Made by a program: the position numbers and the translations under genes. Source: Escherichia coli (lineage in GTDB: Bacteria; Pseudomonadota; Gammaproteobacteria; Enterobacterales; Enterobacteriaceae). From it: DNA of 64,000 bases. The stretch lies in the NCBI RefSeq assembly GCF_003334405.1, contig NZ_QOWM01000005.1. One strand, written 5' to 3'. Position 1 is the stretch's first letter. Each line of letters starts with the position of its first letter. Shown piece by piece: positions 20,224 to 23,698 of the stretch. A model generated the notes under the pieces. The model saw only the letters and a program-made list of their open reading frames with translations, ran no database searches and was not told the origin of the DNA.

Positions 20224-21867
20224 ATGTTGAAGCGCCTACTAAAAAGACCCTCTTTGAATTTACTCGCCTGGCTATTGTTGGCCGCTTTTTATATCTCTAT
20301 CTGCCTGAATATTGCCTTTTTTAAACAGGTGTTGCAGGCGCTGCCGCTGGATTCGCTGCATAACGTACTGGTTTTCTTGTCGATGCCGGTCGTCGCTTTC
20401 AGCGTGATTAATATTGTCCTGACACTAAGCTCTTTCTTATGGCTTAATCGACCACTGGCCTGCCTGTTTATTCTGGTTGGCGCGGCTGCACAATATTTCA
20501 TAATGACTTACGGCATCGTCATCGACCGCTCGATGATTGCCAATATTATTGATACCACTCCGGCAGAAAGTTATGCGCTGATGACACCGCAAATGTTATT
20601 AACGCTGGGATTCAGCGGCGTGCTTGCTGCGCTGATTGCCTGCTGGATAAAAATCAAACCTGCCACCTCGCGTCTGCGCAGTGTTCTTTTCCGTGGAGCC
20701 AATATTCTGGTTTCTGTACTACTGATTTTGCTGGTCGCCGCACTGTTTTATAAAGACTACGCCTCGTTGTTCCGCAATAACAAAGAGCTGGTGAAATCCT
20801 TAAGCCCCTCTAACAGCATTGTTGCCAGCTGGTCATGGTACTCCCATCAGCGACTGGCAAATCTGCCGCTGGTGCGAATTGGTGAAGACGCGCACCGCAA
20901 CCCGTTAATGCAGAACGAAAAACGTAAAAATTTGACCATCCTGATTGTCGGCGAAACCTCGCGGGCGGAGAACTTCTCCCTCAACGGCTACCCGCGTGAA
21001 ACTAACCCGCGGCTGGCGAAAGATAACGTGGTCTATTTCCCTAATACCGCATCTTGCGGCACGGCAACGGCAGTTTCAGTACCGTGCATGTTCTCGGATA
21101 TGCCGCGTGAGCACTACAAAGAAGAGCTGGCACAGCACCAGGAAGGCGTGCTGGATATCATTCAGCGAGCGGGCATCAACGTGCTGTGGAATGACAACGA
21201 TGGCGGCTGTAAAGGTGCCTGCGACCGCGTGCCTCACCAGAACGTCACCGCGCTGAATCTACCTGATCAGTGCATCAACGGCGAATGCTATGACGAAGTG
21301 CTGTTCCACGGGCTTGAAGAGTACATCAATAACCTGCAAGGTGATGGCGTGATTGTCTTACACACCATCGGCAGCCACGGTCCGACCTATTACAACCGCT
21401 ATCCGCCTCAGTTCAGGAAATTTACCCCAACCTGCGACACCAATGAGATCCAGACCTGTACCAAAGAGCAACTGGTGAACACTTACGACAACACGCTGGT
21501 TTACGTCGACTATATTGTTGATAAAGCGATTAATCTGCTGAAAGAACATCAGGATAAATTTACCACCAGCCTGGTTTATCTTTCTGACCACGGTGAATCG
21601 TTAGGTGAAAATGGCATCTATCTGCACGGTCTGCCTTATGCCATCGCCCCGGATAGCCAAAAACAGGTGCCGATGCTGCTGTGGCTGTCGGAGGATTATC
21701 AAAAACGGTATCAGGTTGACCAGAACTGCCTGCAAAAACAGGCGCAAACGCAACACTATTCACAAGACAATTTATTCTCCACGCTATTGGGATTAACTGG
21801 CGTTGAGACGAAGTATTACCAGGCTGCGGATGATATTCTGCAAACTTGCAGGAGAGTGAGTGAATGA
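20224..21867 (+). CDS. eptA: Lipid A phosphoethanolamine transferase EptA/PmrC (547 aa)
   Basis: Translation from [25 protein letters not shown]; N-terminal TM region plus sulfatase-like periplasmic domain; start taken at internal ATG 20224; overlaps basR start by 4 bp. Confidence 0.93.
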
Positions 21868-22532
21868 AAATTCTGATTGTTGAAGACGATACGCTGTTAT
21901 TGCAGGGACTGATTCTGGCGGCGCAAACCGAAGGCTACGCGTGCGATGGCGTGACAACCGCGCGGATGGCGGAACAAAGCCTTGAGGCAGGTCATTACAG
22001 CCTGGTGGTACTGGATTTAGGGTTACCCGACGAAGATGGACTGCATTTTCTCGCCCGTATCCGGCAGAAAAAATATACCCTGCCGGTACTGATCCTCACC
22101 GCTCGCGATACGCTGACCGACAAAATCGCCGGGCTGGATGTCGGTGCCGACGACTATCTGGTGAAGCCTTTTGCGCTGGAAGAGTTACATGCCCGTATCC
22201 GCGCCCTGCTACGACGCCATAATAATCAGGGCGAAAGTGAGCTGATTGTTGGCAATCTGACGCTGAACATGGGTCGCCGTCAGGTATGGATGGGCGGTGA
22301 AGAGTTGATTCTGACGCCCAAAGAATATGCTCTGCTGTCACGGTTAATGCTCAAAGCAGGCAGTCCGGTGCATCGGGAAATTCTCTACAACGACATCTAT
22401 AACTGGGACAATGAACCCTCGACCAACACCCTGGAAGTGCATATCCACAATCTGCGCGACAAAGTGGGCAAAGCCCGTATCCGCACCGTGCGCGGCTTTG
22501 GCTATATGCTGGTCGCGAATGAGGAAAACTAA
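21864..22532 (+). CDS. basR: Response regulator BasR/PmrA (222 aa)
   Basis: OmpR-family receiver plus winged helix ([19 protein letters not shown]...). Confidence 0.95.
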
Positions 22533-22541
22533 TTGAATCTG

Positions 22542-23633
22542 ATGCATTTTCTGCGCCGACCAATATCGCTGCGCCAACGGCTGATATTGACCATCGGGGC
22601 CATTTTGTTGGTGTTTGAGCTGATCAGCGTCTTCTGGCTATGGCATGAAAGTACCGAGCAGATTCAGCTGTTTGAGCAGGCGCTACGCGACAATCGCAAC
22701 AACGATCGCCACATCATGCGTGAGATCCGCGAGGCGGTCGCCAGCCTGATTGTCCCCGGCGTCTTTATGGTCAGCCTGACGCTATTTATCTGCTATCAGG
22801 CGGTACGCCGCATCACCCGCCCGCTGGCGGAGCTGCAAAAAGAGCTGGAAGCGCGCACCGCCGACAACTTAACGCCCATTGCCATTCACAGCGCCACCCT
22901 CGAAATCGAAGCGGTGGTTTCGGCGTTAAACGATCTGGTCAGTCGCCTGACCAGCACGCTGGATAACGAAAGGTTGTTTACCGCTGACGTCGCGCACGAA
23001 CTGCGAACGCCACTGGCGGGGGTGCGTTTGCATCTGGAACTGCTGGCGAAAACGCATCACATTGATGTAGCACCGTTAGTGGCACGGCTTGATCAGATGA
23101 TGGAGAGCGTCTCCCAGCTGCTGCAACTGGCGCGTGCCGGACAGTCATTTTCTTCCGGTAATTATCAACATGTAAAACTGCTGGAAGATGTCATTCTCCC
23201 CTCGTATGACGAACTCAGTACCATGCTCGACCAGCGACAGCAAACCCTGCTATTGCCAGAGAGCGCCGCCGACATCACCGTTCAGGGTGATGCAACCCTG
23301 CTGCGGATGTTATTGCGAAACCTGGTAGAAAACGCCCATCGTTACAGCCCGCAAGGCAGCAACATTATGATTAAGCTGCAAGAAGATGACGGAGCGGTCA
23401 TGGCAGTTGAAGATGAAGGACCAGGTATTGATGAGAGTAAATGCGGGGAGTTGAGTAAAGCGTTTGTACGTATGGACAGCCGTTATGGCGGGATTGGTCT
23501 GGGGTTAAGTATTGTCAGCCGCATTACACAGTTGCATCACGGGCAGTTTTTCCTGCAAAACCGGCAAGAGACTTCCGGCACGCGGGCCTGGGTACGGCTG
23601 AAGAAAGATCAGTACGTGGCAAACCAGATATAA
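22542..23633 (+). CDS. basS: Sensor histidine kinase BasS/PmrB (363 aa)
   Basis: Translation from MHFLRRPISLRQRLILTIGAILLVF, two TM segments, H-box and HATPase domain; start chosen at ATG 22542. Confidence 0.93.
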   Translation: MHFLRRPISLRQRLILTIGAILLVFELISVFWLWHESTEQIQLFEQALRDNRNNDRHIMREIREAVASLIVPGVFMVSLTLFICYQAVRRITRPLAELQKELEARTADNLTPIAIHSATLEIEAVVSALNDLVSRLTSTLDNERLFTADVAHELRTPLAGVRLHLELLAKTHHIDVAPLVARLDQMMESVSQLLQLARAGQSFSSGNYQHVKLLEDVILPSYDELSTMLDQRQQTLLLPESAADITVQGDATLLRMLLRNLVENAHRYSPQGSNIMIKLQEDDGAVMAVEDEGPGIDESKCGELSKAFVRMDSRYGGIGLGLSIVSRITQLHHGQFFLQNRQETSGTRAWVRLKKDQYVANQI

Positions 23634-23698
23634 AGAAAGCTGCTGACCACCAGCACGCTGAACACGGTAGTTAAACTTTCATAAACACGGTTTTTCAT
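23609..23698 (-). CDS. pmrR: Small membrane protein PmrR (29 aa), antisense-overlapping the 3' end of basS
   Basis: Hand translation of the minus strand gives MKNRVYESLTTVFSVLVVSSFLYIWFATY followed by a stop; not in the ORF track; overlaps basS codons by 25 bp. Confidence 0.8.
   Translation of the reverse strand: MKNRVYESLTTVFSVLVVSSFLYIWFATY

What the first reader, a model, noticed from the sequence alone, without database searches (positions are those of the whole stretch)
20224..23698. eptA-basR-basS operon with overlapping junctions and convergent pmrR
eptA/basR overlap by 4 bp and basR/basS are nearly contiguous, so the lipid A modification enzyme is co-translated with its two-component regulators; pmrR overlaps on the opposite strand. 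This is a compact polymyxin-resistance module.
Basis: partly seen in the sequence, partly recalled or inferred. Interest (0 to 1): 0.2.

Follow-up and report, generated by a model that had tools for sequence, protein, structure and literature searches.

The report
Known E. coli eptA-basRS-pmrR polymyxin module
This is the ordinary, well-studied E. coli gene cluster that modifies lipid A and gives polymyxin tolerance (eptA, its regulators basR and basS, and the small peptide gene pmrR); the gene overlaps are real but common, and the pmrR overlap varies between related bacteria.

Summary
The window is E. coli chromosome, and RefSeq annotates eptA 20224-21867, basR 21864-22532, pmrB/basS 22533-23633 and pmrR 23609-23698 (minus strand). 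eptA and basR share ATGA. The basR stop abuts a TTG start for basS. basS and pmrR overlap tail to tail by 25 bp. All four proteins pass their NCBIfam equivalog cut-offs. The only two BasR/PmrA boxes in the 64 kb sit upstream of eptA and of pmrR.

The operon, its two promoters, both overlaps and PmrR function in E. coli are already published, so the finding is already known.

In 16 related loci the basR-stop/basS-start contact is the best-kept junction. The eptA/basR ATGA is usual but not universal. The basS/pmrR spacing runs from a 66-bp overlap to a 44-nt gap; the 25-bp overlap follows from a longer BasS tail in E. coli. "Co-translated" is unproven: coupling is plausible, but an internal promoter also drives basRS.

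One side observation may be new. A conserved, covarying hairpin pairs the pmrR ribosome-binding site with a segment that probably lies upstream of the BasR-dependent transcription start.

The parts
20145..20174 (.). Perfect 13-bp palindrome downstream of adiC that looks like a terminator on both strands. Its 3' arm and the T-rich tail are the BasR box of the eptA promoter.
   Evidence: Terminator-like on both strands. RNA fold of 20121-20200, which contains the palindrome: -26.3 kcal/mol, z -5.0. Kept in 8 of 10 relatives whatever the upstream gene, and lost in Salmonella and L083.
20161..20177 (+). BasR/PmrA box CTTAAGGTTGGCTTAAT of the eptA-basRS promoter P1.
   Evidence: One of only 2 matches to YTTAAK-N5-YTTAAK in 64 kb (0.09 expected by chance). 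Conserved in the relatives. A nAnnnT -10-like hexamer follows 10 nt downstream in all of them.
20224..21867 (+). eptA (pmrC/yjdB), the lipid A phosphoethanolamine transferase, 547 aa.
   Evidence: NF008619 EptA equivalog, 1085.7 bits against a cut-off of 660. Full-length alignment to Neisseria EptA 5FGN, E 6e-146, with the GET, CGTxT and DHGE motifs kept. RefSeq annotation.
21850..21854 (+). Shine-Dalgarno sequence AGGAG for basR, inside the eptA 3' end and 9 nt before the ATG.
   Evidence: Read from the sequence. AGGAG is present at this spot in 8 of 11 loci; the others have CGGAG or GGGAGG.
21864..21867 (+). ATGA junction where the basR start overlaps the eptA stop.
   Evidence: The 61-mer across the junction is >=99% identical in 5252 of 5412 E. 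coli genomes. An NTGA overlap is present in 12 of 16 related loci.
21864..22532 (+). basR (pmrA), an OmpR-family response regulator, 222 aa.
   Evidence: NF007928 PmrA equivalog, 390 bits against a cut-off of 330, aligned 1-216/216. D51 is present.
22521..22535 (+). basR/basS junction: GAGGA Shine-Dalgarno sequence, TAA stop, then TTG start with no gap.
   Evidence: An NTG that abuts or overlaps the basR stop is present in all 11 loci tabulated. The ATG at 22542 is absent in Citrobacter, E. fergusonii and I. alba. TAATTGAATCTGATG is unchanged in the sampled E. coli variants.
22533..23633 (+). basS (pmrB), the sensor histidine kinase: 366 aa from TTG, or 363 aa from the ATG at 22542.
   Evidence: NF008025 PmrB equivalog, 644.7 bits against a cut-off of 314. 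The C-terminal tail ...KKDQYVANQI is 6-7 aa longer than in Salmonella or Citrobacter.
23609..23698 (-). pmrR, a 29-aa membrane peptide that inhibits LpxT.
   Evidence: NF033224 PmrR equivalog, 74.2 bits against a cut-off of 30. Variable columns by codon position are 17/6/22, as expected for coding sequence. Translated, membrane-bound and complementing only with an intact start codon in E. coli (PMC11429745). Phenotype on deleting its PmrA box (PMC8129183).
23609..23633 (.). 25-bp tail-to-tail overlap of the basS and pmrR coding sequences.
   Evidence: Also stated in PMC8004244. In relatives the spacing ranges from a 66-bp overlap to a 44-nt gap.
23641..23655 (-). Terminator-like hairpin with a U-rich tail inside the pmrR coding sequence, probably the 3' end of proP transcripts.
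   Evidence: with the same site in the Salmonella locus. PMC10687069 reports that SEnd-seq shows termination of the upstream gene inside the pmrR CDS.
23702..23729 (-). Hairpin ACUCUCCUCC-N8-GGAGGAGAGU in the pmrR-sense RNA. Its 3' arm is the pmrR Shine-Dalgarno sequence.
   Evidence: -19.9 kcal/mol, z -4.0. In 15 loci 96.3% of cells pair, with 9 compensatory cells in 3 pairs, and 0 of 500 shuffles reach the observed covariation score. In the ten closest loci, all six changes inside the stem give G-U on this strand and C-A on the other.
23727..23732 (-). -10-like hexamer CATACT, 10 nt downstream of the BasR box and overlapping the 5' arm of the hairpin.
   Evidence: The hexamer sits at a fixed 10-nt spacing; 14 of 15 pmrR promoters fit nAnACT (Yokenella: GGTACT) and the eptA promoters fit nAnnnT. 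The transcription start is inferred, not measured.
23743..23759 (-). BasR/PmrA box CTTAAGGTTCACTTAAT of the pmrR promoter.
   Evidence: Conserved in all relatives. Its deletion in E. coli abolishes PmrR function (PMC8129183).
23602..23767 (-). Match to Rfam RF02052 STnc630, listed as an 'enterobacterial sRNA'. The match spans the pmrR promoter, leader and whole ORF.
   Evidence: 181.8 bits against a gathering score of 55, model positions 1-166/166.

Best explanation
This is the chromosomal E. coli eptA-basR-basS (pmrCAB) operon together with the convergent small gene pmrR.

How it works, taken from the literature: BasS senses Fe3+ or mild acid and phosphorylates BasR. BasR-P binds the CTTAAG-N5-CTTAAT boxes at the -35 position of two promoters. 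One drives eptA-basRS, which is positive autoregulation. The other drives pmrR. EptA adds phosphoethanolamine to lipid A. PmrR blocks LpxT, which competes for the same lipid A 1-phosphate. Together these lower the surface charge and raise polymyxin tolerance.

What I infer from the anatomy: the ATGA junction between eptA and basR, and the contact between the basR stop and the basS TTG, are ordinary operon junctions. They allow a terminating ribosome to re-initiate, which is translational coupling. Each junction also has its own Shine-Dalgarno sequence, and basRS has an internal promoter, so the coupling is optional. The weak TTG/GTG start that abuts the stop fits a kinase made in smaller amounts than its regulator.

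The 25-bp basS/pmrR overlap follows from BasS carrying a 6-7 aa longer C-terminal tail in E. coli than in Citrobacter or Salmonella, probably after loss of a stop codon (my reading of the DNA). It is not a conserved device. Because pmrR always sits tight against the basS 3' end, the two transcripts must overlap in any case.
For: - Identity with E. coli chromosomes and exact agreement with RefSeq annotation.
- All four proteins score above their NCBIfam equivalog cut-offs. EptA aligns full-length to the solved structure 5FGN with its catalytic motifs kept.
- The only two BasR boxes in 64 kb lie at the two promoters; 0.09 are expected by chance.
- PMC8129183 describes the eptA-pmrAB operon, promoters P1 and P2, both overlaps and the PmrA box of pmrR in E. 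coli. PMC8004244 states the 25-bp overlap. PMC11429745 shows that PmrR is translated and sits in the membrane. PMC12288877 lists pmrR-basS among transcriptionally overlapping convergent pairs.
- Comparative geometry in 16 loci: the gene order is constant and pmrR is always adjacent in two different genomic contexts (next to proP or next to uvrB). In the 11 loci an NTG abuts or overlaps the basR stop everywhere. The basS/pmrR spacing runs from -66 to +44.
- 4-bp overlaps are common locally: 6 of 40 co-directional pairs.
Against: Nothing contradicts the gene identities. Coupling itself, promoter P2 and the transcript ends were not measured here. The sigma-70 scan found no more promoter-like sites than chance, so P2 could not be located. 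PMC8004244 found that the region downstream of pmrB changes the pmrB mRNA level about 300-fold. That leaves room for a real cis effect of the convergent arrangement, beyond incidental overlap.
Confidence: 0.95

Rival explanations
1. The basS/pmrR overlap is a selected antisense or 'excludon' device. Under this view, convergent transcription and RNA duplex formation make basS and pmrR expression mutually dependent, and this is the point of the arrangement.
For: - pmrR-basS is listed among convergent excludons detected from E. coli RNA-seq (PMC12288877).
- The length of the pmrB downstream region changes the pmrB mRNA level about 315-fold and changes colistin MIC (PMC8004244).
- pmrR abuts basS in every locus examined, even where the neighbouring gene differs.
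- No canonical intrinsic terminator for basS lies before pmrR on the plus strand.
Against: - The ORF overlap is not conserved: a 7-nt gap in Salmonella, 44 nt in I. alba, 4-7 bp in Citrobacter, 25 bp in E. coli and 66 bp in E. fergusonii.
- The variable BasS tails have unrelated sequences and, in E. fergusonii, a shifted reading frame.
- The cut points in PMC8004244 coincide with pmrR promoter elements, so PmrR supply rather than antisense action can explain the MIC series.
- Both genes are induced by the same regulator, which argues against mutual exclusion.
Confidence: 0.2
2. The minus-strand feature is a non-coding sRNA (Rfam STnc630), not a peptide gene, so there is no real gene overlap.
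For: Full-length match to RF02052, which Rfam types as 'Gene; sRNA', at 181.8 bits.
Against: - The Rfam consensus itself contains the BasR box, the Shine-Dalgarno hairpin, the ATG and the whole 29-codon frame.
- NCBIfam PmrR scores 74.2 bits against a cut-off of 30.
- The substitution pattern is that of coding sequence, 17/6/22 by codon position.
- Ribo-RET signal, membrane fractionation, and complementation that fails when ATG is changed to TAA (PMC11429745).
Confidence: 0.03
3. The junction overlaps are annotation artefacts, and different start codons would remove them. This is the refuting condition the first reader named.
For: basS has two candidate starts, TTG at 22533 (RefSeq) and ATG at 22542 (the older K-12 convention). 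The NCBIfam PmrB model begins at the ATG-equivalent residue, aligning protein residues 5-362 to profile positions 2-360.
Against: - basR cannot start upstream of 21864, which is the first start codon after a stop. Starting downstream would delete the conserved MKILIVEDD acidic pocket, since the model aligns from residue 1.
- For basS either start leaves a gap of 9 nt or less.
- The ATG is missing in Citrobacter, E. fergusonii and I. alba, whereas the NTG next to the stop is present in all 11 loci. GAGGA lies 7 nt before the TTG but 16 nt before the ATG.
- The pmrR overlap is set by two stop codons and does not depend on start choice.
Confidence: 0.03

Closest known systems
Salmonella enterica pmrCAB operon plus pmrR (Groisman and Gunn laboratories; Kato et al. 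2012, Mol Cell 47:897, cited from memory and through PMC8129183; the paper itself is not held in the library)
   Same: Same four genes in the same order and orientation. Salmonella has the same ATGA between pmrC and pmrA, and its pmrA stop abuts a GTG followed by the same ...CTGATG. PmrA boxes sit upstream of pmrC and pmrR, and the same Shine-Dalgarno hairpin precedes pmrR (loci L082 and L093).
   Different: Salmonella PmrB ends at ...LLKKA and is separated from pmrR by 7 nt, so the ORFs do not overlap. The palindrome that embeds the eptA BasR box in E. coli is absent. PmrR is 18/29 identical to the E. coli peptide.
E. coli K-12/W3110 eptA-pmrAB-pmrR locus as described in PMC8129183 (Fig. 7) and PMC8004244
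   Same: It is the same locus. P1 with a PmrA box, the internal P2, the eptA/pmrA overlap, the 25-bp pmrB/pmrR overlap and the PmrA box of pmrR are all described there.
   Different: Nothing substantive. This window's alleles are BasR G29 and BasS H2, E121, D283 and Y358. It does not carry E121K, the BL21 colistin-resistance change. PMC8129183 calls pmrR 'divergently transcribed', but the geometry is convergent.
Stop/start overlaps in two-component operons, for example dcuS/dcuR in this same window
   Same: A 4-bp ATGA-type junction between adjacent co-directional genes (dcuS 4151-5782 and dcuR 5779-6498 in the homologous record). This is the usual basis proposed for translational coupling.
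   Different: In this operon the enzyme gene comes first and the kinase start is a weak TTG that abuts the stop rather than overlapping it.
IS10/Tn10 'fold-back inhibition' of transposase translation on read-through transcripts (Davis, Simons and Kleckner 1985; from memory). This is the closest precedent for the side hypothesis about the pmrR leader.
   Same: A segment upstream of the gene's own transcription start is complementary to the ribosome-binding site. Only transcripts that enter from outside can fold and mask the start.
   Different: Not demonstrated for pmrR. The pmrR transcription start is inferred from a conserved -10-like hexamer, not measured.

Membership tests
EptA/PmrC lipid A phosphoethanolamine transferase (NCBIfam NF008619) | Whole-protein score above the curated equivalog cut-off. 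| tested here: met
   1085.7 bits against a cut-off of 660, aligned 1-545 of 546. The MCR models score far below their cut-offs, so this is the chromosomal EptA and not an MCR.
EptA/PmrC lipid A phosphoethanolamine transferase (NCBIfam NF008619) | An N-terminal membrane domain plus a sulfatase-fold catalytic domain with the metal-binding and nucleophile motifs. | tested here: met
   Full-length alignment to Neisseria EptA 5FGN (residues 8-544), with the [24 protein letters not shown] and YLHG motifs aligned to the Neisseria ones. That these motifs hold the Zn ligands and the catalytic Thr is from memory.
BasR/PmrA response regulator (NF007928) | Score above the equivalog cut-off, with a receiver domain carrying the phospho-acceptor Asp and a winged-helix output domain. 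| tested here: met
   390 bits against a cut-off of 330. The next best model, QseB, scores 203.5 against its cut-off of 345. D51 is present.
BasS/PmrB sensor kinase (NF008025) | Score above the equivalog cut-off. | tested here: met
   644.7 bits against a cut-off of 314. HisKA and HATPase_c domains are recorded on the homologues.
PmrR, LpxT activity modulator (NF033224) | A peptide of about 29 aa scoring above the cut-off. | tested here: met
   74.2 bits against a cut-off of 30, aligned 1-29/29.
PmrR, LpxT activity modulator (NF033224) | A PmrA/BasR-dependent promoter, and a position convergent with the 3' end of pmrB. | tested here: met
   The box CTTAAGGTTCACTTAAT at 23743-23759 is conserved in all relatives. 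The gene is adjacent to basS in all 16 loci.
PmrR, LpxT activity modulator (NF033224) | Binds and inhibits LpxT in the inner membrane. | not testable with these tools
   Supported for E. coli by genetics in PMC8129183 and by membrane fractionation in PMC11429745. Residues 9-27 are hydrophobic, mean Kyte-Doolittle value 1.94.
BasR/PmrA regulon promoter | A direct repeat YTTAAK-N5-YTTAAK placed at the -35 position. | tested here: met
   Two exact matches in 64 kb against 0.09 expected. Each is followed 10 nt later by a conserved nAnnnT hexamer. Binding itself was not tested.
Single operon with translational coupling | Co-transcription of eptA, basR and basS. | not testable with these tools
   Stated in PMC8129183, with P1 and an internal P2. 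No terminator-like site with a convincing stem lies between the genes on the plus strand.
Single operon with translational coupling | The stop of the upstream gene overlaps or abuts the start of the downstream gene. | tested here: met
   ATGA at 21864-21867, and TAA followed directly by TTG at 22530-22535. Whether downstream translation actually depends on upstream translation was not tested.
Excludon (convergent genes with overlapping transcripts and mutual interference) | Overlapping antisense transcripts. | not testable with these tools
   The ORFs overlap by 25 bp. PMC12288877 lists pmrR-basS from RNA-seq coverage.
Excludon (convergent genes with overlapping transcripts and mutual interference) | Mutually exclusive expression of the two partners. 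| not tested
   Both promoters carry the same activator box, which argues for co-induction rather than exclusion.
Rfam RF02052 STnc630 sRNA | Score above the gathering threshold. | tested here: met
   181.8 bits against 55. The matched stretch is the pmrR promoter, leader and ORF, so 'sRNA' is a misnomer for a small mRNA.

The most novel reading that the evidence does not exclude
The perfectly paired 10-bp hairpin in front of pmrR (23702-23729) may be a conserved, covarying RNA element that masks the pmrR ribosome-binding site only on transcripts entering from upstream, such as proP read-through, which the literature reports ends inside the pmrR CDS.

The BasR-dependent transcript probably starts inside the hairpin, because the -10-like hexamer overlaps its 5' arm. 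That transcript would lack the masking arm and would be freely translated. This is an IS10-like 'fold-back' insulator on a chromosomal small-protein gene.

Linked to this, divergent 30-aa PmrR-like peptides travel with pmrCAB in Klebsiella, Kluyvera, Yokenella, Trabulsiella and a Kosakonia-like Enterobacter. They have the same box and hairpin but escape the NCBIfam PmrR model.
Probability: 0.3. Interest if true: 0.35.

Novelty: already known. Interest (0 to 1): 0.1.

Why it matters
The locus matters clinically because basRS mutations and EptA activity underlie chromosomal colistin resistance.

The check still yields four modest points:
- The basS start conserved across genera is the TTG/GTG that touches the basR stop, not the ATG of the older K-12 annotation.
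- The pmrR overlap is a lineage-specific accident of BasS tail length and should not be read as a regulatory design.
[quoted passage not shown] This offers a simple reinterpretation of that study.
- The pmrR leader carries a covarying hairpin that masks its ribosome-binding site and deserves a transcription-start mapping experiment.

Tried and rejected
- **Genome-collection scan.** Only two orthologous loci came back (Citrobacter werkmanii L002 and Enterobacter sp. Bisph1 L003); the other 78 are unrelated OmpR-family regulators. I reached Salmonella and the other genera through PmrB homologue searches and exact-protein contig look-ups.
- **PmrR homologue search.** PmrR is too short for the search for homologous proteins.
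- **Papers not held.** Kato et al. 2012 (PMC3465083) and Marchal et al. 2004 are not in the library, so the published pmrR and pmrC transcription starts could not be read.
- **Promoter scan.** It found no more sigma-70-like sites than chance, so it could not locate the internal promoter P2.
- **Qrr Rfam hit.** The hit at 20138-20237 scores 22 bits against a threshold of 50, E 0.87. It is chance, caused by the palindrome.
- **Plasmid copies.** The 'plasmid' records are 94 kb to 4.9 Mb, non-mobilizable, and carry adiC as well. They are chromosome pieces labelled as plasmids, so there is no evidence that the module is mobile.
- **Strand test on the ten closest loci.** It gave only one-sided changes. 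Covariation appeared only after adding the uvrB-context genera.
- **ORF screen for PmrR.** My first screen, fixed at 29 aa, missed the 30-aa homologue in L003. I corrected this.

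
Full report
**What is there.** Window 19500-24500 is 100% identical to many complete E. 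coli chromosomes, and 5415 of 5426 complete genomes match it. Transferring the RefSeq annotation of NZ_CP032237.1 gives adiC, then eptA 20224-21867 (+), basR 21864-22532 (+), pmrB/basS 22533-23633 (+), pmrR 23609-23698 (-), and then proP (-).

All four products pass their NCBIfam equivalog cut-offs:

| Protein | Bits | Cut-off |
|---|---|---|
| EptA | 1085.7 | 660 |
| PmrA/BasR | 390 | 330 |
| PmrB/BasS | 644.7 | 314 |
| PmrR | 74.2 | 30 |

EptA aligns over its full length to the solved Neisseria EptA structure 5FGN, with the GET, CGTxT and DHGE motifs in place.

**The junctions.**
- The sequence reads ...GAGTGAATGAAA, so the eptA TGA (21865-21867) and the basR ATG (21864-21866) share ATGA. 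An AGGAG lies 9 nt upstream.
- The basR TAA (22530-22532) is followed directly by TTG (22533). A second candidate start, an ATG, lies at 22542. GAGGA sits 7 nt before the TTG.
- The basS TAA ends at 23633 and the pmrR stop occupies 23609-23611, so the two reading frames overlap tail to tail by 25 bp.

They do not:
- basR has no in-frame start upstream, and the family model aligns from residue 1.
- The eptA ATG is the conserved start across genera, while the GTG just before it is not.
- The pmrR overlap is fixed by two stop codons.

**Is it more than chance?** A 4-bp overlap is ordinary. In the homologous 50 kb, 6 of 40 co-directional neighbour pairs overlap by exactly 4 bp, including the other two-component pair dcuS/dcuR, and 12 pairs overlap in some way. 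The convergent overlap is less usual: the other three convergent pairs there have gaps of 123-146 nt.

**Regulatory signals.** The PmrA/BasR consensus YTTAAK-N5-YTTAAK occurs exactly twice in the 64 kb, against 0.09 expected by chance:
- 20161-20177 (+), 46 nt before the eptA ATG.
- 23743-23759 (-), 44 nt before the pmrR ATG.

Both boxes are conserved in the relatives. In both promoter families a hexamer of the form nAnnnT follows exactly 10 nt after the box. This is the geometry known for class II OmpR/PhoB-family promoters (from memory).

Rfam's 'sRNA' STnc630 matches 23602-23767 (-) at 181.8 bits. Its consensus contains the box, the leader hairpin, the ATG and the whole pmrR frame, so it is the pmrR transcription unit.

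**What the literature already says.**
- PMC8129183 (Fig. 7 legend and text) describes the E. coli eptA-pmrAB operon: a PmrA-dependent P1, an internal P2, the eptA/pmrA overlap, the pmrR gene overlapping the 3' end of pmrB, and its PmrA box. Deleting that box relieves LpxT inhibition.
- PMC8004244 states the 25-bp overlap.
- PMC11429745 shows by Ribo-RET, membrane fractionation and start-codon-dependent complementation that E. coli PmrR is a real membrane peptide.
- PMC12288877 lists pmrR-basS among convergent transcript overlaps.

The finding is therefore already known in every particular.

I assembled 15 related loci:
- A divergent E. coli (L088).
- E. fergusonii (L084).
- Two Salmonella loci (L082, L093). 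L093 is named Salmonella enterica by NCBI. L082 has junction sequences identical to L093.
- Citrobacter rodentium, amalonaticus, sedlakii and werkmanii.
- L083, labelled Salmonella but Citrobacter-like.
- Intestinirhabdus alba.
- Five loci in which the operon lies next to uvrB instead of proP: Klebsiella pneumoniae, Yokenella, Trabulsiella, Kluyvera and Enterobacter sp. Bisph1.

Gene order and orientation are constant. Spacings (negative values are overlaps):

| Junction | Spacing in relatives |
|---|---|
| eptA/basR | -4 in 12 of 16 loci; +4 in L083 and C. werkmanii; -1 in Klebsiella; +10 in Kluyvera |
| basR/basS | 0 or -4 to an NTG in all 11 loci tabulated; in the five uvrB-context loci the called starts lie at -1 to +3, except Yokenella at +41, and I did not examine alternative starts there |
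| basS/pmrR | -66 (E. fergusonii), -25 (E. coli), -22 (Klebsiella), -11, -7, -4, 0, +1, +5, +7 (Salmonella), +44 (I. alba) |

The ATG at 22542 is missing in Citrobacter, E. fergusonii and I. alba. The conserved basS start is therefore the weak codon that touches the basR stop.

The conserved kinase domain ends at ...GTRAWVxLKK. E. coli carries the extra residues DQYVANQI, where Citrobacter has DQ followed by a stop. This suggests a TAA-to-TAC stop loss, which is my reading of the DNA. E. fergusonii runs on in another frame for 380 aa. The pmrR overlap is thus a lineage-specific consequence of a drifting BasS tail.

Within E. coli the junctions are stable. The eptA/basR 61-mer is >=99% identical in 5252 of 5412 genomes. 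The TAATTGAATCTGATG core is unchanged in the sampled variants. The basS-end/pmrR 181-mer is >=99% identical in 4640 of 5410 records.

**How it most likely works.** The published parts are these. BasS activates BasR, which binds both boxes and induces eptA-basRS (autoregulation) and pmrR. EptA decorates lipid A with phosphoethanolamine. PmrR blocks the competing LpxT.

The inferred parts are these. Ribosomes terminating at the eptA and basR stops can re-initiate at the overlapping or abutting starts. This ties BasR and BasS synthesis to the P1 transcript. The weak TTG keeps the kinase scarcer than the regulator. The internal P2 and the separate Shine-Dalgarno sequences mean the coupling is not obligatory. 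For this reason 'co-translated' overstates what the geometry shows.

**Side observation 1: a hairpin that masks the pmrR ribosome-binding site.**
- On the pmrR-sense strand, 23729-23702 folds as ACUCUCCUCC-N8-GGAGGAGAGU (-19.9 kcal/mol, z -4.0). The 3' arm is the pmrR Shine-Dalgarno sequence.
- In the ten closest loci the loop varies freely while the stem stays paired. All six changes inside the stem are C-to-U. These give G-U pairs on this strand and C-A mismatches on the other strand.
- Adding the five uvrB-context loci brings compensatory changes in 3 of 9 pairs (CG to AU, GC or GU; UA to CG). In the 15 loci 96.3% of cells are paired, against at most 61.5% when the partners are slid. Nine cells are changed on both sides, and none of 500 shuffles reaches the observed covariation score.
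- The sample is small and the sequences are related, so this is good but not conclusive support.
- The conserved -10-like hexamer (CATACT, 23727-23732) overlaps the 5' arm. That would place the BasR-dependent start near 23719, inside the hairpin.
- PMC10687069 reports from SEnd-seq that the upstream gene terminates inside the pmrR CDS. A terminator-like hairpin with a U-rich tail sits at 23655-23641 on that strand, and the same site is present in Salmonella.
- My hypothesis is that only read-through RNA from upstream carries the masking arm. On that RNA pmrR, which would also be cut short, is not translated, while the BasR-driven mRNA is open. The closest precedent is IS10 fold-back inhibition (from memory). 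The transcription start is not measured here, and in the uvrB-context loci a good terminator already precedes the box. I put this at about 0.3.

**Side observation 2: the 'critical downstream region' of pmrB.** The 176-nt pmrB-proP spacer of PMC8004244 equals 23634-23809. Its constructs therefore end as follows:

| Construct | Ends at | What it contains | Colistin result |
|---|---|---|---|
| +86 | 23719 | Ends in the hairpin loop; no -10 | No resistance |
| +103 | 23736 | Includes the -10; no BasR box | MIC 4 |
| +126 | 23759 | Ends at the outermost base of the BasR box | MIC 16 |

The graded MICs track the completeness of the pmrR promoter. The authors mention pmrR as a possibility. In the passages I read they do not note this coincidence.

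**Side observation 3: the eptA BasR box doubles as a terminator arm.** The box forms the 3' arm and U-tract of a perfect 13-bp palindrome (20145-20174) that looks like a terminator on both strands. The palindrome is kept in 8 of 10 relatives whether the upstream gene is adiC, adiY, fumB or yjdF. It is lost in Salmonella and L083.

**Side observation 4: unrecognised PmrR-like peptides.** The uvrB-context genera carry 30-aa hydrophobic ORFs ending in W-x-x-[ST]-[YF], in the pmrR position and with the same box and hairpin. The NCBIfam PmrR model does not recognise them; the best score is 14 bits against a cut-off of 30. Gene callers mostly skip them.

**Verdict.** The feature is already known and ordinary, so interest is low. 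The most novel reading left open concerns the pmrR leader hairpin, not the overlaps the finding was about.

Noticed in passing
window 23702-23729 (minus-strand RNA); also L082-L084, L088-L093, L095-L098, L002, L003: A 10-bp hairpin pairs the pmrR Shine-Dalgarno sequence with an upstream arm that overlaps the -10-like hexamer. The stem is conserved and the loop is free to vary. Across 15 loci, 3 of 9 pairs show compensatory changes. In the ten closest loci, all six changes inside the stem give G-U on this strand and C-A mismatches on the other. It may mask pmrR translation only on read-through transcripts.
   Followed up: partly
window 23641-23655 (minus strand), inside the pmrR coding sequence: A terminator-like hairpin with a U-rich tail lies within pmrR codons 15-22. 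This fits the published statement that the upstream gene (proP) terminates inside the pmrR CDS (PMC10687069). The full pmrR mRNA must read through it.
   Followed up: partly
window 23719 / 23736 / 23759: [quoted passage not shown] The graded colistin MICs track the completeness of the pmrR promoter.
   Followed up: partly
window 20145-20177: The BasR box of the eptA promoter is the 3' arm and T-tract of a perfect 13-bp palindrome that looks like a bidirectional terminator after adiC. The palindrome is kept in 8 of 10 relatives whatever the upstream gene, and lost in Salmonella and L083.
   Followed up: partly
L095 4077-4169, L096 4058-4150, L097 4081-4173, L098 4086-4178, L003 6262-6354 (all minus strand): Klebsiella pneumoniae, Yokenella, Trabulsiella, Kluyvera and Enterobacter sp. 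Bisph1 carry 30-aa hydrophobic ORFs in the pmrR position, each with a PmrA box and a Shine-Dalgarno hairpin. The NCBIfam PmrR model does not detect them (best 14 bits against a cut-off of 30), and gene callers mostly leave them uncalled. In these genera the whole module sits next to uvrB rather than proP.
   Followed up: partly
window 22533 versus 22542: The basS start conserved across genera is the TTG/GTG touching the basR stop (the RefSeq choice). The ATG used in the older 363-aa K-12 annotation is absent in Citrobacter, E. fergusonii and I. alba.
   Followed up: yes
window 23602-23767 (minus strand): The Rfam family STnc630, typed as an sRNA, is the pmrR promoter, leader and coding sequence. 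It is a small mRNA filed as a non-coding RNA.
   Followed up: yes
L084 4001-5143 (E. fergusonii): BasS is 380 aa because a frame change near the end carries it 66 nt into the antisense of an intact pmrR (28/29 identical to the E. coli peptide). The gene caller then does not call pmrR.
   Followed up: partly
window 29430-29809: A tandem array with a 100-bp period, 3.8 copies and 97% matches lies between yjdM and yjdN. The unit contains REP-like palindromes and looks like a BIME-type array.
   Followed up: no
window 23769-23797: A REP-like palindrome GGCCTGATAAGACAGCGTCACATCAGGCC lies between the proP stop and the pmrR BasR box. The divergent E. coli L088 has a longer version, and E. fergusonii and Salmonella have none.
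   Followed up: no
protein list (P0001-P0009, P0012, P0014): Several E. coli PmrB entries are 376-426 aa instead of 366, with 77-97% identity over full coverage. This suggests in-frame internal duplications. I did not examine them.
   Followed up: no
(records such as NZ_CP048307.1 and AP026530.1): A few records labelled as plasmids carry the whole adiC-eptA-basRS-pmrR stretch. They are 94 kb to 4.9 Mb, non-mobilizable, and look like chromosome fragments or mislabelled replicons.
   Followed up: partly
H1, NZ_CP144926.1: One otherwise identical genome has an IS1A-family element annotated within the stretch matching window 19500-24500, where the match spans about 777 extra bases in two pieces. 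I did not determine the exact insertion point.
   Followed up: no
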